From: an uncultured virus (IMG/VR IMGVR_UViG_3300045131_000274)
Lineage: Duplodnaviria > Heunggongvirae > Uroviricota > Caudoviricetes
Virus record (IMG/VR): IMGVR_UViG_3300045131_000274
DNA: 20,000 bases
Reading direction: 5' to 3' (one strand)
Shown: piece after piece, positions 2,896-9,113 of the stretch
How the letters are laid out: each line of letters starts with the position of its first letter
Position numbering within the stretch: the stretch's first letter is position 1
The notes under the pieces: model-generated
Databases searched by the model: none
Told to the model about the DNA's origin: nothing
What the model saw: only the letters and a program-made list of their open reading frames with translations
Program-made: the position numbers and the translations under genes

Positions 2896-3071
2896 GAATT
2901 TTTCTCCTTGTTAAAATACCACTTCCATCTACGCTGCTTGGCAATCAAACTAAGCATTTCTTTCGTATATCTTTCGAGTGCAACTCCCATCATGTTTGCA
3001 ACCTTTACGTCGGTTGCAGACAAAAGAATCTTGCCAACCTTGTCTTGGCCCCTGACCTTACGGACTATCAC
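2892..3071 (-). CDS. hypothetical 59-aa basic protein
   Basis: Below the ORF-track cutoff. GTG start overlapping the upstream TGA: MIVRKVRGQDKVGKILLSATDVKVANMMGVALERYTKEMLSLIAKQRRWKWYFNKEKNS*. Fills the gap exactly. Confidence 0.7.
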   Translation of the reverse strand: MIVRKVRGQDKVGKILLSATDVKVANMMGVALERYTKEMLSLIAKQRRWKWYFNKEKNS

Positions 3072-3415
3072 GCTTGCCCCAGTAACTTCAGACCTCGCTC
3101 CGCCAGCTTATCTTTAATTTCATTAAGACTTCTGCGGCCTAAATTGGGTACTTTTAGTAAATCATTCTCGGTGCATCTAAGCAGCTGGCTGACCGTTCGA
3201 ATGCTCTCCGCCTCCAGGCAAGACCTAGATCTAGCGCTTAGCTCCAAATTGGCAATATAAACATCGGCATTGGCGTCACGCAAAGTCCATTGCTCAATGA
3301 TGTGCCGTCTGCGCTCTAACATCTCCCCTGCAAGGTCATAAGACCTCACAAAACTATGCGGCGAAAGACGCAATATTTCTATTGCAAGTTGGTCCAGTAA
3401 CTCTTCTTTGTTCAT
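3068..3415 (-). CDS. RNA polymerase alpha-subunit C-terminal domain homologue with N-terminal helical extension
   Basis: aa 54-112 IANLELSARSRSCLEAESIRTVSQLLRCTENDLLKVPNLGRRSLNEIKDKLAERGLKL aligns without gaps to RpoA-CTD (E. coli, from memory: [58 protein letters not shown]). No alpha-NTD. Confidence 0.93.
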   Translation of the reverse strand: MNKEELLDQLAIEILRLSPHSFVRSYDLAGEMLERRRHIIEQWTLRDANADVYIANLELSARSRSCLEAESIRTVSQLLRCTENDLLKVPNLGRRSLNEIKDKLAERGLKLLGQA

Positions 3416-3711: not shown

Positions 3712-3938
3712 TTGTCACGCTCCTCTAGCATGGCATCGGCCGCTTTATATGCATCTGCTGCCAGTTCGTAACGATTGGGGTGTGAGCCTCCAGCCAACAA
3801 TGCTTGCATAGCTTTGGCTGCAAAATAATCCCGCAGCGACATGCCGTCTGTGTGAATTGAAAAGCCCAGGATCCGCGATTCATCATCGACCATGAACCTG
3901 GGTGTTGGGAATGCTGCGCCGCCTGTTTTCTCTCTCAT
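3708..3938 (-). CDS. conserved small phage protein (GMSLRDYFAAKAMQ family)
   Basis: GGAAFP...GMSLRDYFAAKAMQALL...AYKAADAMLEER is a widespread phage motif of unknown function. Confidence 0.85.
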   Translation of the reverse strand: MREKTGGAAFPTPRFMVDDESRILGFSIHTDGMSLRDYFAAKAMQALLAGGSHPNRYELAADAYKAADAMLEERDK

Positions 3939-4117
3939 GTTGATTCCTTTTTGTTTTCGTTTCTGATTGCCCTGCGCACAATTGTTTCTGTTACCCCAAA
4001 TCTTTCTGCAATTTGTCGGTATGAAAGCCCCTGTTTACGCAGCACGATTGCTCGCCTTACATCTACTGGTGTTGCCGGCCGGCCCGCGCCAATCCTAGCT
4101 CCGCCGTGTTTTGTCAT
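3935..4117 (-). CDS. small helix-turn-helix DNA-binding protein, first gene of the leftward operon
   Basis: GGARIGAGRP arm followed by LRKQGLSYRQIAERFGVTETIVRRAI (Hin/resolvase-type HTH); AAAGGAG RBS. Confidence 0.85.
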   Translation of the reverse strand: MTKHGGARIGAGRPATPVDVRRAIVLRKQGLSYRQIAERFGVTETIVRRAIRNENKKEST

Positions 4118-4143
4118 ACGCTTCTCCTTTAAACTTGAAATCG

Positions 4144-4172
4144 ACTATACACGTATTCAAGATACTTTGCAA
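4144..4172 (-). promoter_or_regulatory. sigma70-like leftward promoter
   Basis: TTGCAA (4172-4167), 17 nt spacer, TATAGT (4149-4144), just upstream of the HTH gene RBS. Confidence 0.75.
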
Positions 4173-4482
4173 CAGGTTGTTCCTGTTTATTTATAACAGG
4201 CAGTACGTATAGCGATAGCAGACCCCCGAGACTCCCGACCTGTACCCTTTGCACAGATATGTGGAAGTCACCAGCCAGTCGAAACCTGCTGCTCGCGGAA
4301 CGTCGTATTCAACTATCGACCGCCCGTGTCGTGGGCCAGACGCTGATTGTCGGTTTGCTTGGTCGTTTTATGCAGTCGCTACGAAACGCTGCGGCGCCGG
4401 GGGTCTATTAAAGCGCCATCGGTTTCTTGAGTACGGCCCCGACATTGGCCTATTAGCTAACGCGCTCTGACGAGTGGTGGCT

Positions 4483-4642
4483 AAAAAGCAAAAAACCCTT
4501 ATTGAAAGATACGAGCTTTAGGCTTGGTTGCCGCATAAGAGCCTGCGTTGACAGGGCATCCTAGCTTTGACGAAGCCCGCTCCTTCAATAAGGGTTCGGG
4601 ATGTCGTTTCAACGAACTACAACGGGTTACCAATCCGTTGAT
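4483..4642 (-). ncRNA. C4-like antisense RNA with leader hairpin
   Basis: 13-bp perfect inverted repeat (4494-4506 / 4584-4596) extended inward by G-U-containing pairs on the minus strand and followed by a U tract; inner stems UAGG/CCUA and CCUG/CAGG; leader hairpin at 4620-4640. Confidence 0.55.
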
Positions 4643-4648
4643 GGATGA

Positions 4649-4679
4649 ATTGTATCAAACAAATGTATAGATTTGTCAA
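4649..4679 (-). promoter_or_regulatory. sigma70-like promoter upstream of the C4-like RNA
   Basis: TTGACA (4679-4674), 19 nt spacer, TACAAT (4654-4649). Near-consensus hexamers but a long spacer that contains the inverted repeat ACAAAT-N6-ATTTGT. Confidence 0.55.
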
Positions 4680-4688
4680 TACCCTATG

Positions 4689-4812
4689 AAAAAATTGTTG
4701 GTGGGCACATGAAGCAGTGTGGGCGCTAAAACCGAACTAAGGAACAACGCGCGGCGCTAACCCGCTTACCACCAACACGACTGAGGACTGGCGCCAATCC
4801 CCATGCGTGTTG
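4689..4812 (-). ncRNA. candidate structured RNA with internal anti-SD segment
   Basis: Hairpin 4773-4812 with G-U pairs on the minus strand; 9-bp closing stem 4696-4704 / 4769-4777 followed by AUUUUUU; GUUGUUCCUU lies inside. Confidence 0.45.
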
Positions 4813-4820
4813 CCCCTGAG

Positions 4821-4848
4821 AAAAAAGCGGCCCCAGTTACGGAGCCGC
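4821..4848 (-). terminator. Rho-independent terminator
   Basis: GCGGCUCC-GUAACU-GGGGCCGC followed by UUUUUU on the minus strand. Confidence 0.85.
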
Positions 4849-4900
4849 AAAGCAATCAAAGGAGAAACGTAAACCAACAAACCAACCAGCCCTCTGGAAT
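4821..4900 (-). ncRNA. candidate ~80-nt anti-RBS small RNA
   Basis: Own promoter candidate, a GU-rich body containing UACGUUUCUCCUUUGA, and an intrinsic terminator. Confidence 0.55.
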
Positions 4901-4906
4901 GATTCC

Positions 4907-4935
4907 ATATTACACACATTTTTTTAAAACTTCAA
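4907..4935 (-). promoter_or_regulatory. sigma70-like promoter embedded in the 3' end of the VRR-NUC gene
   Basis: TTGAAG (4935-4930), 17 nt spacer, TAATAT (4912-4907). Confidence 0.5.
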
Positions 4936-5194
4936 CCGCATCTTCAACAGAATTAACAATAAATAAATTATTACCTGGCCATTCCTCGTGGAACTTCTGT
5001 TCCGCCGCCGTCAGATCGCGGGCCGATGCAGCCTTGCTTCCATCTTTTATTTCAAATAAAAGCGTATGGCCGTTGTAGTAAACCAACAAATCAAACAAGC
5101 CGGCGTGATTGATTGAGCGCACATAGGCACCGCAGTCCCGCAGAAATAGAACTATTTCGTTTTCATTGTCGTCGCGCCTGGCTGCTCGTCGCAT
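4910..5194 (-). CDS. VRR-NUC-like PD-(D/E)XK endonuclease (putative junction resolvase)
   Basis: MRRAARRDDNENEIV...GLFDLLV...LLFEIKDG...LTAAEQKFHEEW...IVNSVEDA; GAGGA RBS before the ATG at 5194. Confidence 0.85.
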   Translation of the reverse strand: MRRAARRDDNENEIVLFLRDCGAYVRSINHAGLFDLLVYYNGHTLLFEIKDGSKAASARDLTAAEQKFHEEWPGNNLFIVNSVEDAVEVLKKCV

Positions 5195-5243
5195 ACAAAA
5201 GTCCTCATGTTGATTAGCGTTTATACCAGATATAAAAAAACTG

Positions 5244-5272
5244 TTGACGTACATGGACCTACCTGTTACATT
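5244..5272 (+). promoter_or_regulatory. sigma70-like rightward promoter
   Basis: TTGACG (5244-5249), 17 nt spacer, TACATT (5267-5272), with extended -10 TGn and an A-tract upstream. Confidence 0.75.
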
Positions 5273-5303
5273 CACACACAGAACAACCAGTCAGGAGAAA
5301 CCA

Positions 5304-5546
5304 ATGGATAAACCGGAACTTCAATCAATGGGCACGGCATATGAGCTGGCCACGTACTTAGTAGATCACGCTATGGACAAAGCAAGCGGCAACGGCATGC
5401 TGGCCTCTCTCGCATTAGGCATGGCATACGCATCACTGATGTGTTCCAACCGTGTCGCAGAAGAGAAAGCCCAGGCCCTGATCAGCGGCGTCTACGAACG
5501 CTCAGCCCGCTTCGATGCAATGGGAGGCTCGCATGAAACTCACTAA
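5304..5546 (+). CDS. hypothetical protein, first gene of the rightward operon
   Basis: AGGAG RBS before ATG 5304 (MDKPELQSM...). Confidence 0.78.
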   Translation: MDKPELQSMGTAYELATYLVDHAMDKASGNGMLASLALGMAYASLMCSNRVAEEKAQALISGVYERSARFDAMGGSHETH

Positions 5547-6411
5547 CAACTACAACCTGCCCGAGACAATCGTCAACGTTTTAAAGCGCCCGACGTACAG
5601 CAAAGGCAAGGCAAACATATCGGCCACCGAACTACTCAACAGCCCCCGCGTTGTGCAGCTCAAACGCAAACACTGGGACGACATAGAAGAGGACGCGGCC
5701 GACATGGTTTGGTCCCTGTTTGGGACTGCTGTGCACGGCGTACTGGAACACGGCAAAGACGACCACCACATTGTAGAAGAGCGCATTCATACCGAGGTGG
5801 ACGGCTGGAAGATATCCGGCGCCATCGACCTGCAAGAGTTGACCGATGCCGGCACCATTCTGTCTGACTACAAAGTCACCAGCGCATGGGCTGTAATGAA
5901 TGAGAAACAAGATTGGCATTCACAGTTAAACCTGTACGCCTACCTGGTTGAAAGCGTCAAGAAAAAGCCGGTATGCAAGGCGCAGATCGTCGCTATCGTC
6001 CGGGACTGGTCGCGCCGGGACGCTAAGACCCGCGAGGGTTACCCGCAAGCACCGATTGTGGTAATTGACATACCCCTATGGTCATTTGAAGAAAGAGAAG
6101 CGTACGTAAAAGCGCGCGTCGCTTTGCACGAAGCAGCTTTCTTTGATGCAGAAACAGGCGGGAGCATTTCCGAATGCACCCCCGAAGAGATGTGGGAAAA
6201 ACCCACTATGTATGCCGTTAAAAAAGACGGCGCAGCCAGGGCCAAGAGCGTTCACAAGACGCTTGAAGAAGCTCAGGCAGCCCTAGAAGTCGCAAAGACC
6301 AAGGGCTACGGCATCGAGGTGCGTGAAGGCGACCGCACCCGCTGCTCAGGATTCTGTCAAATCGCCCAGTACTGTGATCAATACCAAACCTACCTCAAGG
6401 AGAAACCATGA
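5533..6411 (+). CDS. PD-(D/E)XK nuclease, Cas4/AddB-like phage exonuclease
   Basis: GTAVH, VEER, ISGAIDL, SDYKVT and QLNLY motifs; C-terminal RCSGFCQIAQYC; GGAGG RBS before ATG 5533; lies upstream of ERF and SSB. Confidence 0.88.
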   Translation: MKLTNNYNLPETIVNVLKRPTYSKGKANISATELLNSPRVVQLKRKHWDDIEEDAADMVWSLFGTAVHGVLEHGKDDHHIVEERIHTEVDGWKISGAIDLQELTDAGTILSDYKVTSAWAVMNEKQDWHSQLNLYAYLVESVKKKPVCKAQIVAIVRDWSRRDAKTREGYPQAPIVVIDIPLWSFEEREAYVKARVALHEAAFFDAETGGSISECTPEEMWEKPTMYAVKKDGAARAKSVHKTLEEAQAALEVAKTKGYGIEVREGDRTRCSGFCQIAQYCDQYQTYLKEKP

Positions 6412-6911
6412 ATGATGTTCATAAAGCATCGCTAGAACGAGCCATTAAAACTCTTACAGCTTTAGACTGTACCTTCGCCATTGTCGATTCAGCAAAAGAA
6501 TTGCACGGCAGCCCCCTGACCGTGTTAGATGAGCTGGGTTCTACCTATGCCGTCATTGACTTAGCCGGTGTACGCCACGGCCTGGTTAGCGCCGTCCTAG
6601 AAAAGATGGAATGCCAATACGTCATCACCACTAAAGATGGGATGAAGTACAGCAACACCATTGAAAAAACCCCGGAGCCGCCAGTTAGAGTGGCCCGAGA
6701 ATTCCCTCACGGTGACACGCGCGCATATGTCAAGTCGTTTGTTGGCTCCCTGCAGGTTGGTGATACAGTCTCCATCCCCGCAGACAAATATGGAGTGAGC
6801 AACATTCAAAACTCAGTAACTTCATGGTTTGTCAGCACGTACGGGAAAAATTCCTGTACTACTTTTCAAAACAAATCAACCAACGCCGTTGATGTATTGA
6901 GGATCGGATGA
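6408..6911 (+). CDS. hypothetical protein with three internal 24-aa repeats
   Basis: AAGGAG RBS, ATGA overlap; repeats visible in the translation. Confidence 0.8.
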   Translation: MNDVHKASLERAIKTLTALDCTFAIVDSAKELHGSPLTVLDELGSTYAVIDLAGVRHGLVSAVLEKMECQYVITTKDGMKYSNTIEKTPEPPVRVAREFPHGDTRAYVKSFVGSLQVGDTVSIPADKYGVSNIQNSVTSWFVSTYGKNSCTTFQNKSTNAVDVLRIG

Positions 6912-7093
6912 TGCTGCAACAACTTAAACACCAAATCAAAGAATTTTTTATGGAAGAGCCGCGGTTCTCTATTGAAGAAGAACTCAACGCCCTGCGCCGA
7001 CGCAACGAAGCCAGAGCTAAAGCGGCCATCGCAGAATTGGGCGAAAAGTGGATAGCCCACCCCAGTCACGCAGCACAAAGGATTAAACAATGA
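6908..7093 (+). CDS. hypothetical protein
   Basis: ATGA-coupled; AKAAIAELGEKWIAHP. Confidence 0.72.
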   Translation: MMLQQLKHQIKEFFMEEPRFSIEEELNALRRRNEARAKAAIAELGEKWIAHPSHAAQRIKQ

Positions 7094-7326
7094 AACGCAA
7101 CACGCAAGAAGCCGCGCCATGCTCGGCGCAAACGGCCTACAAACTTAAAGGTGTGACCTACGTCCCCCACTACCGCAACAACAGCGTGTATGTTGGACCT
7201 GGATACCCTACGCACAACAGGTCGCGGTATAGCGCAGACGAGCTGGTGCTTGCGGGCGCAGCCATGGTCACCGAGCTGCTGTGGGTGCGGGCCAATCACG
7301 GCATCTGTAACGAAATCAACCCATAA
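7090..7326 (+). CDS. hypothetical protein
   Basis: ATGA-coupled; YVPHYRN...YVGPGY. Confidence 0.72.
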   Translation: MKRNTQEAAPCSAQTAYKLKGVTYVPHYRNNSVYVGPGYPTHNRSRYSADELVLAGAAMVTELLWVRANHGICNEINP

Positions 7327-7334
7327 GGAAAATA

Positions 7335-8030
7335 ATGTCTGTTCACAAAAAACTAATGCAAGCTCGGGTAAAGCTGCAAGCTACAGAGATGAAGAAGTCA
7401 GGACTAAACAAGTTTGCGGGCTACAGTTATTTTGAGTTGGGTGACTTCATCCCCCACATCCAAACAATCTTTAATGATATTGGTCTGTGCGGCGTAGTGT
7501 CGTTTGATGCTACACATGCTACCTTGTGTATCACCGACACAGAAGACGGCTCACAGATCGTTGTGACCTCTCCTATGGCCGAAGCTAACCTGAAGGGCGC
7601 ACACCCCATCCAAAACCTGGGCGCCGTTTTGAGTTACCAGCGTCGCTACCTTTGGATGGCAGCTTTAGAAATTGTGGAACATGACATCATTGATGCCAGC
7701 CCCAACAACGAAGCTTCAGCCAAACCAGTAGTGCGAGCAGCGCCAAAGGCGGAAGAAAAGAAAGCGCCCGCCAAGATGGAAGGTGCCGACGCCCCCTGGT
7801 CGCTCAAGGTCACAGCCAAACCGGGCACTGATGTTGGCGAGTGGTGCTCATTGGTGATCGACATGGCGCGCATGGGCCTGACCCAGTGCGGCAGCGAAGC
7901 AGATGTCATGTCTATCTTCAAAGTTAACCGCGCAATCTTTGACCACCTCAAGGTGTCCGACGCAGACCGCTATGACGAACTCATGGCGGAATTTAAAAAA
8001 GCAAGAGCTAATCACAAGGAAGCAGCATGA
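7335..8030 (+). CDS. erf: ERF-family single-strand annealing recombinase
   Basis: KSGLNKFAGYSYFELGDF and QNLGAVLSYQRRYL (GxxxSYxRRY ERF signature). Confidence 0.9.
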   Translation: MSVHKKLMQARVKLQATEMKKSGLNKFAGYSYFELGDFIPHIQTIFNDIGLCGVVSFDATHATLCITDTEDGSQIVVTSPMAEANLKGAHPIQNLGAVLSYQRRYLWMAALEIVEHDIIDASPNNEASAKPVVRAAPKAEEKKAPAKMEGADAPWSLKVTAKPGTDVGEWCSLVIDMARMGLTQCGSEADVMSIFKVNRAIFDHLKVSDADRYDELMAEFKKARANHKEAA

Positions 8031-8404
8031 ACTCAATCACAGTGGCCGGAACCATCGGCAAAGACGCAGAAGTTAAAAGAATGGCCAACGGCGATGCCTT
8101 GTGCAATTTCTCCGTAGCAGACGGCCAGGGCAAAGACAAGCCAACCATTTGGTGGAACTGCAGTCTGTACGGCAAGCGCGCAGAAGCCCTGTCCCAGTAC
8201 CTCATCAAAGGTCAGGCGGTCACCGTGTCCGGCACAGTGTCCGAGCGCGAATGGACTGACAAAGAAGGCAGCAAGCGCAAGTCTATGGATGTTCGTGTGG
8301 GTGATGTAGCCCTGCAAGGCGGCCGCCGCGATGCAGAGCCGCAGCAAGAGCGCCGCGCAGCACCCAAGATGGACACGGCCGAAGACCAAGACATTCCCTT
8401 CTGA
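8027..8404 (+). CDS. ssb: single-stranded DNA-binding protein
   Basis: MNSITVAGTIGKDAEV...YLIKGQAVTVSG...REWTDKEG OB fold with acidic DQDIPF tail. Confidence 0.95.
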   Translation: MNSITVAGTIGKDAEVKRMANGDALCNFSVADGQGKDKPTIWWNCSLYGKRAEALSQYLIKGQAVTVSGTVSEREWTDKEGSKRKSMDVRVGDVALQGGRRDAEPQQERRAAPKMDTAEDQDIPF

Positions 8405-8406
8405 CC

Positions 8407-8826
8407 ATGAAGACCAACAACTTTGAAGCCGTCAAGATTGCGATGACGCAGAATCGTACCGGCTACGTGTTGACCTTGTCCGTCCACCCCGACGACGTGC
8501 CCGAAGACATCCTTCGTGACTTTGTTGGGGCACGGTACCAGGTTGTCATGGTCCGGCTAAACGCGCAAGAAGAACCAATGAACCGTGAGCATGAGTACTC
8601 ACGCGACCTGGTTCGCAGCGCCGGGATGCTGTGCCGTGACCCACTCTTTCAGAAGTTTCTGTGCCAAGCGGGCCAGACCTTTGGTGAAAGCGAAGAAGAA
8701 GCCCGGCAATGGATGCTGGCTGAATTCCAAATCGCCTCACGCGCAGAACTTAAAAATAACCCAGAAGCGGCCAGACAATACATGGCCGTGCAACAGGAAT
8801 ACCTAGCATGGAAACAAAGCGCCTAA
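8407..8826 (+). CDS. hypothetical phage protein
   Basis: In-operon ORF; AGMLCRDPLFQKFL...SRAEL. Confidence 0.8.
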   Translation: MKTNNFEAVKIAMTQNRTGYVLTLSVHPDDVPEDILRDFVGARYQVVMVRLNAQEEPMNREHEYSRDLVRSAGMLCRDPLFQKFLCQAGQTFGESEEEARQWMLAEFQIASRAELKNNPEAARQYMAVQQEYLAWKQSA

Positions 8827-9113
8827 TCCCTTATTCGGTCCACCTGCGGGAGGACATTTACCATCAGCTAAAAGACGCCGCAAGGGGCCGTAAAGCCAGC
8901 GGAATCGTGCGTGACGCCATCACCATGATCATCGAGGGCGACGACGCCTTTAACGCGGGGTTTAACAAAGGCCTACGCGAAGCCATGAAGGTAGTGCGTG
9001 ATGACGTTTGGGCCAAGAGCCTGTCTGTTCACGGCGAACTGATGTCAGAAGTATTGGCTGACCAGATCGCAGAAAAGATTGGGGGCGAAAATGGCAACAA
9101 GAAAAAAGGCTGA
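8808..9113 (+). CDS. putative ribbon-helix-helix DNA-binding protein
   Basis: IPYSVHL (beta) - REDIYHQLKDAA (helix) - KASGIVRDAI (helix), a CopG/Arc-like pattern. Confidence 0.6.
   Translation: METKRLIPYSVHLREDIYHQLKDAARGRKASGIVRDAITMIIEGDDAFNAGFNKGLREAMKVVRDDVWAKSLSVHGELMSEVLADQIAEKIGGENGNKKKG

What the first reader, a model, noticed from the sequence alone, without database searches (positions are those of the whole stretch)
4821..4935. Candidate phage sRNA forming a 16-bp duplex over the RBS of the first leftward gene
Seen: on the minus strand, a promoter (TTGAAG-17-TAATAT), an ~80-nt body with no credible gene, and an intrinsic terminator. The body segment 5'-UACGUUUCUCCUUUGA (4871-4856) pairs at all 16 positions with the HTH-gene leader 5'-UUAAAGGAGAAGCGUA(UG) (4132-4117). 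Both non-Watson-Crick positions are G-U, which works only for these two minus-strand RNAs. The duplex covers the SD, the spacer and the A of AUG, so it goes well beyond a generic anti-SD match. The same segment can pair with the first rightward gene's leader (GUUUCUCCU/AGGAGAAAC, 2-nt bulge, GAUUG/CAGUC near 5288-5301) and with AAGGAGAAAC before 6408. Inference: a trans-acting sRNA that silences the lead gene of one or both divergent, translationally coupled operons, acting as an RNA switch where no CI-like repressor is visible.
Basis: partly seen in the sequence, partly recalled or inferred. Interest (0 to 1): 0.8.

Follow-up and report, generated by a model that had tools for sequence, protein, structure and literature searches.

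The report
Phage small RNA blocking recombination genes
A group of uncultured phages carries a short gene, apparently for an RNA, whose sequence changes in step with the start signal of their DNA-recombination genes, suggesting it switches those genes off, though it has not yet been shown to be made.

Summary
The element is real: a sigma70-type promoter built into the end of an endonuclease gene, a U-rich anti-RBS body and a terminator. It recurs as 72 distinct units in related phages plus 16 in a second search; none of those scanned matches Rfam. The 16-bp helix with the HTH leader exists but is not the conserved interaction: its last three pairs are private to this allele, and helices of 16 bp or more are about as common in foreign RNA/phage pairs (36 of 480) as in cognate ones (7 of 60). 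Cognate pairs are about 3-4 kcal/mol better than foreign ones (p<=0.0007), both halves co-vary in register, and 10 new lineages replicate it (p about 0.002). The operon's other genes and control stretches show nothing. Most likely a trans-acting antisense RNA shutting off early recombination genes in probably lytic phages, with HTH a side target in this clade. Expression and repression are unshown, and the co-variation cannot exclude a DNA-level direct repeat.

The parts
4930..4935 (-). -35 hexamer TTGAAG, inside the last codons of the endonuclease gene
   Evidence: position conserved across 72 units
4907..4912 (-). -10 hexamer TAATAT; its first three bases are the stop codon of the endonuclease gene
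   Evidence: last T in 64 of 72 units
4821..4900 (-). predicted sRNA of about 80 nt (5' end inferred from promoter spacing); family range 54-87 nt
   Evidence: transcript not shown
4853..4885 (-). pairing region: 5' part antisense to spacer/AUG/first codons, anti-SD core UCUCCU (4865-4860), 3' part GAUUG (4857-4853) antisense to the leader upstream of the SD
4821..4848 (-). intrinsic terminator, preceded by a U-rich stretch
   Evidence: 51 distinct stems in 72 units; at least 2 U in the last 3 bases before the stem in 69 of 72
4910..5194 (-). 94-aa endonuclease / Holliday-junction-resolvase-like gene (called VRR-NUC-like from recall) that hosts the promoter
   Evidence: 8 of 10 relatives hit phrog_93 endonuclease, 7 of 10 phrog_5702 resolvase; the window's own protein has no hit
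5244..5272 (+). rightward promoter TTGACG-17-TACATT with an ACCTG motif in the spacer
5288..5314 (+). co-evolving target: leader, SD (5293-5297), AUG (5304) and first codons of the first rightward gene
5304..5546 (+). first rightward gene, 80-aa three-helix protein of no known family; overlaps the exonuclease start
5533..8404 (+). recombination genes downstream: exonuclease (5533-6411), Erf-like annealing protein (7335-8030), SSB (8027-8404)
4117..4132 (-). HTH-gene leader: 16-bp partner in this allele, likely a secondary, clade-limited target
3935..4117 (-). 60-aa HTH gene, lead gene of the leftward operon (promoter 4172-4144)

Best explanation
A phage-encoded, trans-acting antisense sRNA. 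Host sigma70 polymerase makes it from a promoter buried in the end of the endonuclease gene (inferred). It pairs in two parts with almost the whole 5' end of the divergent early transcript: its 3' segment takes the leader upstream of the SD, the core takes the SD, and the 5' segment takes spacer, AUG and first codons (computed; co-variation shown). This would block 30S binding to the first gene and, through coupling or polarity, turn down the exonuclease-Erf-SSB recombination operon (inferred). As RNA and target share a polymerase and the RNA ends in a stable hairpin, the likeliest role is a delayed shut-off or copy-number brake during lytic growth (inferred). The generic anti-RBS core also lets it bind other phage start sites, in this clade mainly the HTH leader.
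For: The unit follows the endonuclease gene in all but 5 of 87 loci examined, 72 distinct. Anti-SD hexamer in 60 of 72 bodies against 3.7 expected from shuffles; anti-AUG at RBS spacing in 35 of 72 against 1.1; only 4 of 139 other terminators have the hexamer upstream. Double-centred cognate/foreign test, one locus per lineage: first rightward leader -2.6 to -3.25 kcal/mol, p<=0.0007, 25 lineages; non-lead genes of that operon, the endonuclease's own start and late genes not significant; second gene of the operon p=0.06-0.32. Both halves co-vary in register (p about 0.002 and 0.001); off-register pairings and two control stretches do not. Nearest-lineage swaps favour the cognate pair in 11 of 12 (p=0.0007). 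Out of sample, 10 new lineages give -3.2 to -3.4, p about 0.002, control not significant. The leader ranks first among own start regions in 9 of 37 loci (1.3 expected; 4 of the 9 are the window's clade). Pairing is kept in 11 of 11 loci of the window's clade. The lead gene is sometimes the exonuclease or another protein, so the target is the leader and not one protein.
Against: No transcript evidence: the 4 RNA runs laid were contigs, with no strand or ends. The opposite strands pair equally well, so the co-variation is Watson-Crick identity and fits a DNA direct repeat too. In 21 of 37 loci the leader is outside the top 3, in several in the lower half. With folding costs included the window's RNA prefers HTH (-27.3) and the 7090 gene (-25.8) to this leader (-24.6) among 36 starts, and its core is partly paired in the lowest-energy fold. 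Within the clade the own leader is often not the best partner (matrix). Lineages were cut at 80% identity and are not fully independent. The role was one of seven tested, chosen after seeing hits. Gene starts came from my own simple caller.
Confidence: 0.58

Rival explanations
1. A broad anti-RBS RNA that dampens many phage early and middle genes (and those of co-infecting relatives) with no single main target.
For: The best target differs between phages. Early and middle starts pair better than late ones (all-RNA mean -14.5 to -15.2 against -13.2, p=1e-9). Weak cognate fit for the distal early block (p=0.005-0.07) and the downstream block (p=0.02-0.12).
Against: The cognate signal is several times larger for the one leader and includes sequence upstream of the SD.
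Confidence: 0.16
2. A DNA-level direct repeat: a duplicated gene start beside an ordinary terminator of the endonuclease gene, kept by gene conversion or as a recombination site, with no regulatory RNA.
For: On the + strand body and leader are direct repeats flanking the endonuclease gene; the opposite strands pair equally well. The block downstream is in opposite orientation in 25 of 61 loci.
Against: The non-coding -10 T is conserved (64 of 72). The match is gapped and imperfect yet cognate across lineages whose lead proteins share 12-23% identity with the window's. ORFs after the mimicked ATG fall in all three frames with 5-94 codons.
Confidence: 0.11
3. One reading: the HTH leader is the main, co-evolved target, and the RNA switches between the two operons in place of a repressor.
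For: 16-bp helix; HTH ranks first in 4 of 6 close relatives on the 27-nt core and first with folding costs in the window.
Against: Extension private to one allele, no compensatory changes, lost in two alleles; low ranks in distant homologues; permutation test not significant but only 3 lineages.
Confidence: 0.08
4. A host-directed growth-inhibiting anti-SD RNA like the Burkholderia toxic sRNAs or NmsR, used for host takeover.
For: Weak Rfam alignments to NmsRb and suhB/MmgR through the CU core and terminator; such RNAs hit many RBSs and slow growth (PMC5688073; PMC5362039).
Against: The sequence tracks the phage's own leader; host unknown, host targets not tested.
Confidence: 0.07

Closest known systems
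P22 sar antisense RNA (PMC12197685, text part 2 of 6 read)
   Same: Small phage RNA that pairs with a phage mRNA and blocks translation initiation.
   Different: sar is cis-encoded over the ant RBS (recalled) and serves lysogeny; this RNA lies about 400 nt from its target, pairs imperfectly, and its phages show no lysogeny genes in the three families searched.
P1/P7 C4 antisense RNA (PMC5320573 passages)
   Same: Two-part recognition: one segment covers the RBS, another binds upstream and gives specificity; RNA and target vary together.
   Different: C4 is a three-stem RNA cut by RNase P and part of an immunity system; this is a primary transcript with one terminator hairpin and no Rfam c4 match.
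Anti-SD sRNAs NmsR (RF02877), suhB/MmgR (RF00519), Burkholderia double-hairpin toxic sRNAs (RF02278)
   Same: 60-90 nt, CU-rich anti-SD segment ahead of a terminator, probably several targets.
   Different: Chromosomal, conserved seed, metabolic host targets; here the guide is hypervariable, often includes an anti-AUG, and follows a phage leader.
Lambda OOP RNA
   Same: About 80 nt (length recalled), own promoter, antisense control of an early phage gene.
   Different: OOP is cis-antisense to cII and acts through RNase III decay.

Membership tests
NmsRb RF02877 | Score at or above the gathering threshold (52 bits) | tested here: not met
   19.7 bits, E=2.7; no hit at E<=10 in 9 of 9 homologues scanned
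suhB/MmgR RF00519 | Score at or above the gathering threshold (41 bits) | tested here: not met
   16.4 bits, E=1.9; no hit in 9 homologues
Toxic sRNA RF02278 | Match to the family model / double hairpin | tested here: not met
   Not among matches at E<=10
Toxic sRNA RF02278 | Inhibits growth when expressed | not testable with these tools
   Needs expression in bacteria
C4 antisense RNA RF01695 | Three-stem fold and model match | tested here: not met
   No Rfam match; the terminator is the only helix seen in all 7 folds shown
C4 antisense RNA RF01695 | Two-part pairing, RBS plus upstream specificity segment | tested here: met
   Both halves co-vary in register; computational only
cis-encoded antisense RNA (sar, OOP type) | Overlaps its target gene on the opposite strand | tested here: not met
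   No conserved ORF opposite; target lies about 400 nt away
Trans-encoded base-pairing sRNA (class) | Own promoter and intrinsic terminator | tested here: met
   (comparative evidence only)
Trans-encoded base-pairing sRNA (class) | Discrete transcript | tested here: inconclusive
   Only contigs were available
Trans-encoded base-pairing sRNA (class) | Single-stranded seed complementary to a start region | tested here: inconclusive
   Complementarity met; mean unpaired probability of the core 0.58 in 70 RNAs, partly paired in the window's RNA
Hfq-dependent sRNA | U-rich stretch, hairpin, poly(U) tail | tested here: met
   69 of 72 bodies end in at least 2 U of 3; module as described in PMC5362039 passages
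Hfq-dependent sRNA | Hfq binding and dependence | not testable with these tools
   Host unknown

The most novel reading that the evidence does not exclude
A lytic phage group uses an RNA timer: a guide re-copied from its own target leader (the two are direct repeats around the resolvase gene, next to the phage's recombinase) accumulates with time and genome number and shuts the recombination operon in a lineage-specific way, so that co-infecting relatives silence each other's recombination genes only when their leaders match.
Probability: 0.15. Interest if true: 0.82.

Novelty: new variant of a known kind. Interest (0 to 1): 0.62.

Why it matters
The phage sRNAs in the review text I read (part 2 of 6 and passages) are mostly from temperate phages and are either cis-antisense or aimed at host genes. 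This is a family of at least 88 distinct units in an uncultured, apparently lytic phage group, with a target assigned by natural co-variation across about 30 lineages and replicated out of sample. It offers dozens of natural RNA/leader pairs for cognate-versus-swapped reporter tests, and a candidate post-transcriptional brake on phage recombination genes.

Tried and rejected
Rfam at gathering thresholds: 0 matches in the window; none at E<=1 in three short loci, two of which were not homologues. blastn of 4100-5320 against 50,697 phage records: no match; best protein matches among those records under 60% identity, so no cultured close relative and no host. In 50 of 51 genome-contig loci inspected by eye, only the 3 closest (L316-L318) show the unit; genome G011 had no RecA over the cut-off and did not identify a host. 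A peptide on the opposite strand: rejected. The endonuclease's own start as target: no signal. A first clustering merged 53 of 72 units into one group and gave p=0.15 for the rightward leader with 7 clusters; it was replaced by 31 clusters at 80% identity. A stricter terminator scan found 22 other terminators, 0 with the hexamer; one search is the relaxed version. Other promoter-led genes: not significant, but only 5 lineages. RNA-library contigs cover the region in relatives but give no strand, ends or level. Fold of the target protein: no Foldseek match at E<=0.001; best VIA Z 6.7 (rmsd 3.1, 74 aligned) to 2jr2, atlas lead YejL/DUF1414 under the bar: a lead only. Earlier scan findings: none. 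Nine literature searches listed no paper that, by title and abstract start, describes this RNA; subscription journals are not covered, and the supplements of the Weinberg motif survey (PMC2864571) were not read and could hold related motifs.

Full report
CONTEXT. The window is part of a 26.7-kb virus record. Rightward from a promoter at 5244-5272 run an 80-aa gene (5304), an exonuclease, an Erf-like annealing protein and SSB. Leftward lie a 94-aa endonuclease/resolvase-like gene (5194-4910), about 790 nt without credible genes, and an HTH gene leading a run of small coupled genes. No close relative was found among 50,697 phage records; the host is unknown.

OBSERVATION. Promoter, body, terminator and the 16-bp helix are at the stated coordinates. 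The -10 box uses the stop codon of the endonuclease gene. With equal windows the RNA pairs about as well with the first rightward leader (-28.8) as with the HTH leader (-28.1); the next of 33 starts gives -24.0. With folding costs the order among 36 starts is HTH -27.3, gene 7090 -25.8, rightward leader -24.6.

IT IS A FAMILY. An alignment of ten endonucleases returned the best 80 of 498 relatives. I dropped 4 that duplicated whole contigs and added 11 contigs, the window's included. Five of these 87 gave no terminator (one, L296, has a long hairpin the script missed), and 72 distinct units remained. They are 54-87 nt long. The last -10 base, outside the coding sequence, is T in 64 of 72. The body reads as the reverse complement of a gene start: UCUCCU or UUCCUU in 60 of 72 (3.7 expected), with CAU at RBS spacing in 35 of 72 (1.1 expected). 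Only 4 of 139 other terminators in the same loci have the hexamer upstream. ORFs after the mimicked ATG on the other strand fall in all three frames at scattered lengths, so no peptide is conserved. A second search gave 54 new distinct loci: 16 with the unit and 38 without by the script, nearly all of the latter distant relatives in other gene contexts.

THE HTH DUPLEX. It is unusual for this RNA (beats 1413 foreign starts, p=0.023) but not for the family: helices of 16 bp or more occur in 7 of 60 cognate and 36 of 480 foreign pairs, and in 6.4% of flank shuffles. In 8 alleles of the window's clade the UAC extension appears once, and changes in the leader are not matched. HTH still ranks first in 4 of 6 close relatives on the 27-nt core, second in one and 13th in one, but 3rd to 70th in 6 distant homologues. 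It is plausibly a side target here.

THE CO-EVOLVING PARTNER. A general test of best own target against foreign starts was only weakly positive (7 of 60 at p<0.05; binomial p=0.03; four self-overlapping ORFs masked). I then tested seven positional roles, one locus per lineage (31 lineages at 80% identity), with double-centred energies and permutation. The first rightward leader gave -2.6 to -3.25 kcal/mol (49 loci, 25 lineages, p<=0.0007). Non-lead genes of that operon gave about -0.2 (p=0.15-0.53), the endonuclease's own start about 0, late genes 0 (6 lineages), HTH not significant (3 lineages), the downstream block -0.3 to -0.5 and the distal early block -0.5 to -0.9. After dropping two mis-called starts and one locus without an anchor motif (46 loci, 23 lineages), the full guide gave -3.6 to -4.4 (p=0.0002); the 3' half against the upstream leader and the 5' half against spacer/AUG were each significant, while off-register pairings and two neighbouring control stretches were not. 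Swaps between nearest lineages favoured the cognate pair in 11 of 12. As the role was picked after seeing hits, I repeated the test on 12 new loci under 80% identical to any earlier one (10 lineages): -3.2 to -3.4, p about 0.002, control p about 0.4. In the window's clade all 11 loci (10 distinct alleles) keep this pairing, and it beats HTH in 6 of 8. The leader is short (median 22 nt in 44 loci), so the duplex covers most of it. The lead gene is usually a ~80-aa helical protein but sometimes the exonuclease or another gene.

RESULTS AGAINST. The opposite strands pair equally well (-21.5 against -22.5): on DNA, body and leader are direct repeats, and co-variation cannot separate RNA pairing from a DNA repeat. 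Strand polarity rests on promoter and terminator. The leader is outside the top 3 in 21 of 37 loci, and within the clade the own leader is often not the best partner. RNA data were contigs only.

MECHANISM. Shown by computation: the unit, its conservation, and leader-specific co-variation. Inferred: transcription by sigma70 polymerase, Hfq help (U-rich stretch, hairpin and U tail in 69 of 72), occlusion of the RBS, and polarity on the recombination operon. Five relatives, three at least 93% complete, lack tyrosine integrase, serine recombinase and S24 repressor domains, so timing within a lytic cycle is likelier than a lysogeny switch. A shared motif inside the rightward promoter (29 of 40 found among 72) points to a protein regulator as well; the 8808 gene is a weak ribbon-helix-helix lead (score 0.89; 44% of that cluster carry RHH_3).

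COMPARISON. It works like an RBS-occluding antisense RNA: sar for the outcome (PMC12197685, part 2 of 6 and passages), C4 for two-part recognition (PMC5320573 passages), NmsR and the Burkholderia toxic sRNAs for the anti-SD core (PMC5362039 and PMC5688073 passages). It belongs to none by Rfam score. Of PMC2864571 I saw passages only. Nine searches, seen as listings, showed no description of this family.

VERDICT. New variant of a known kind; interest 0.62.

Noticed in passing
window 4680-4488 (-): Second promoter (TTGACA...TACAAT) and a long-stem RNA (fold z -4.5) resembling C4-type antisense RNAs (likeness from recall, no Rfam hit). Its sequence differs wholly among close relatives L002, L003, L006, L009, L010, each with a 5' segment that looks complementary to an inner loop; a candidate specificity module.
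   Followed up: partly
window 4470-4200 (-): About 270 nt without a credible gene, nearly identical among close relatives, visibly more conserved than the neighbouring gene, and recognisable in the distant L011; folds at -96 kcal/mol, no shuffle control; covered by contigs of all 4 RNA-library runs. Possible structured RNA or origin.
   Followed up: partly
window 4812-4700 (-): Hairpin (4773-4812) followed by a GGGTTAGCGCC...CACTGCT motif that occurs a second time further downstream in relatives.
   Followed up: no
window 4171-4187 and 5250-5270: Operator-like AACAGG-N5-CCTGTT at the leftward promoter and a related site in the rightward promoter.
   Followed up: partly
window 8808-9113 (+): Conserved 101-aa protein, weak ribbon-helix-helix lead; candidate for the operator-binding regulator.
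   Followed up: partly
window 3068-3415 (-): Phage gene with an RNA polymerase alpha C-terminal domain (PF03118, E=1e-21).
   Followed up: no
L003, L006, L009 downstream of the terminator: A glutaredoxin-like gene (CPQC motif; label from recall) sits between the sRNA and the C4-like RNA in several relatives but is absent from the window.
   Followed up: no
G002, G003, G004 behind the rightward promoter: A tract of GG-containing pentamer repeats follows the promoter in place of an immediate gene start.
   Followed up: no
61 related loci: The gene block downstream of the sRNA is on the opposite strand in 25 and on the same strand in 36.
   Followed up: no
G001 and L282, first rightward gene: A 395-396 aa protein resembling RtcB RNA ligase (label from recall, not tested) is the lead gene, and the G001 sRNA still matches its leader.
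   Followed up: no
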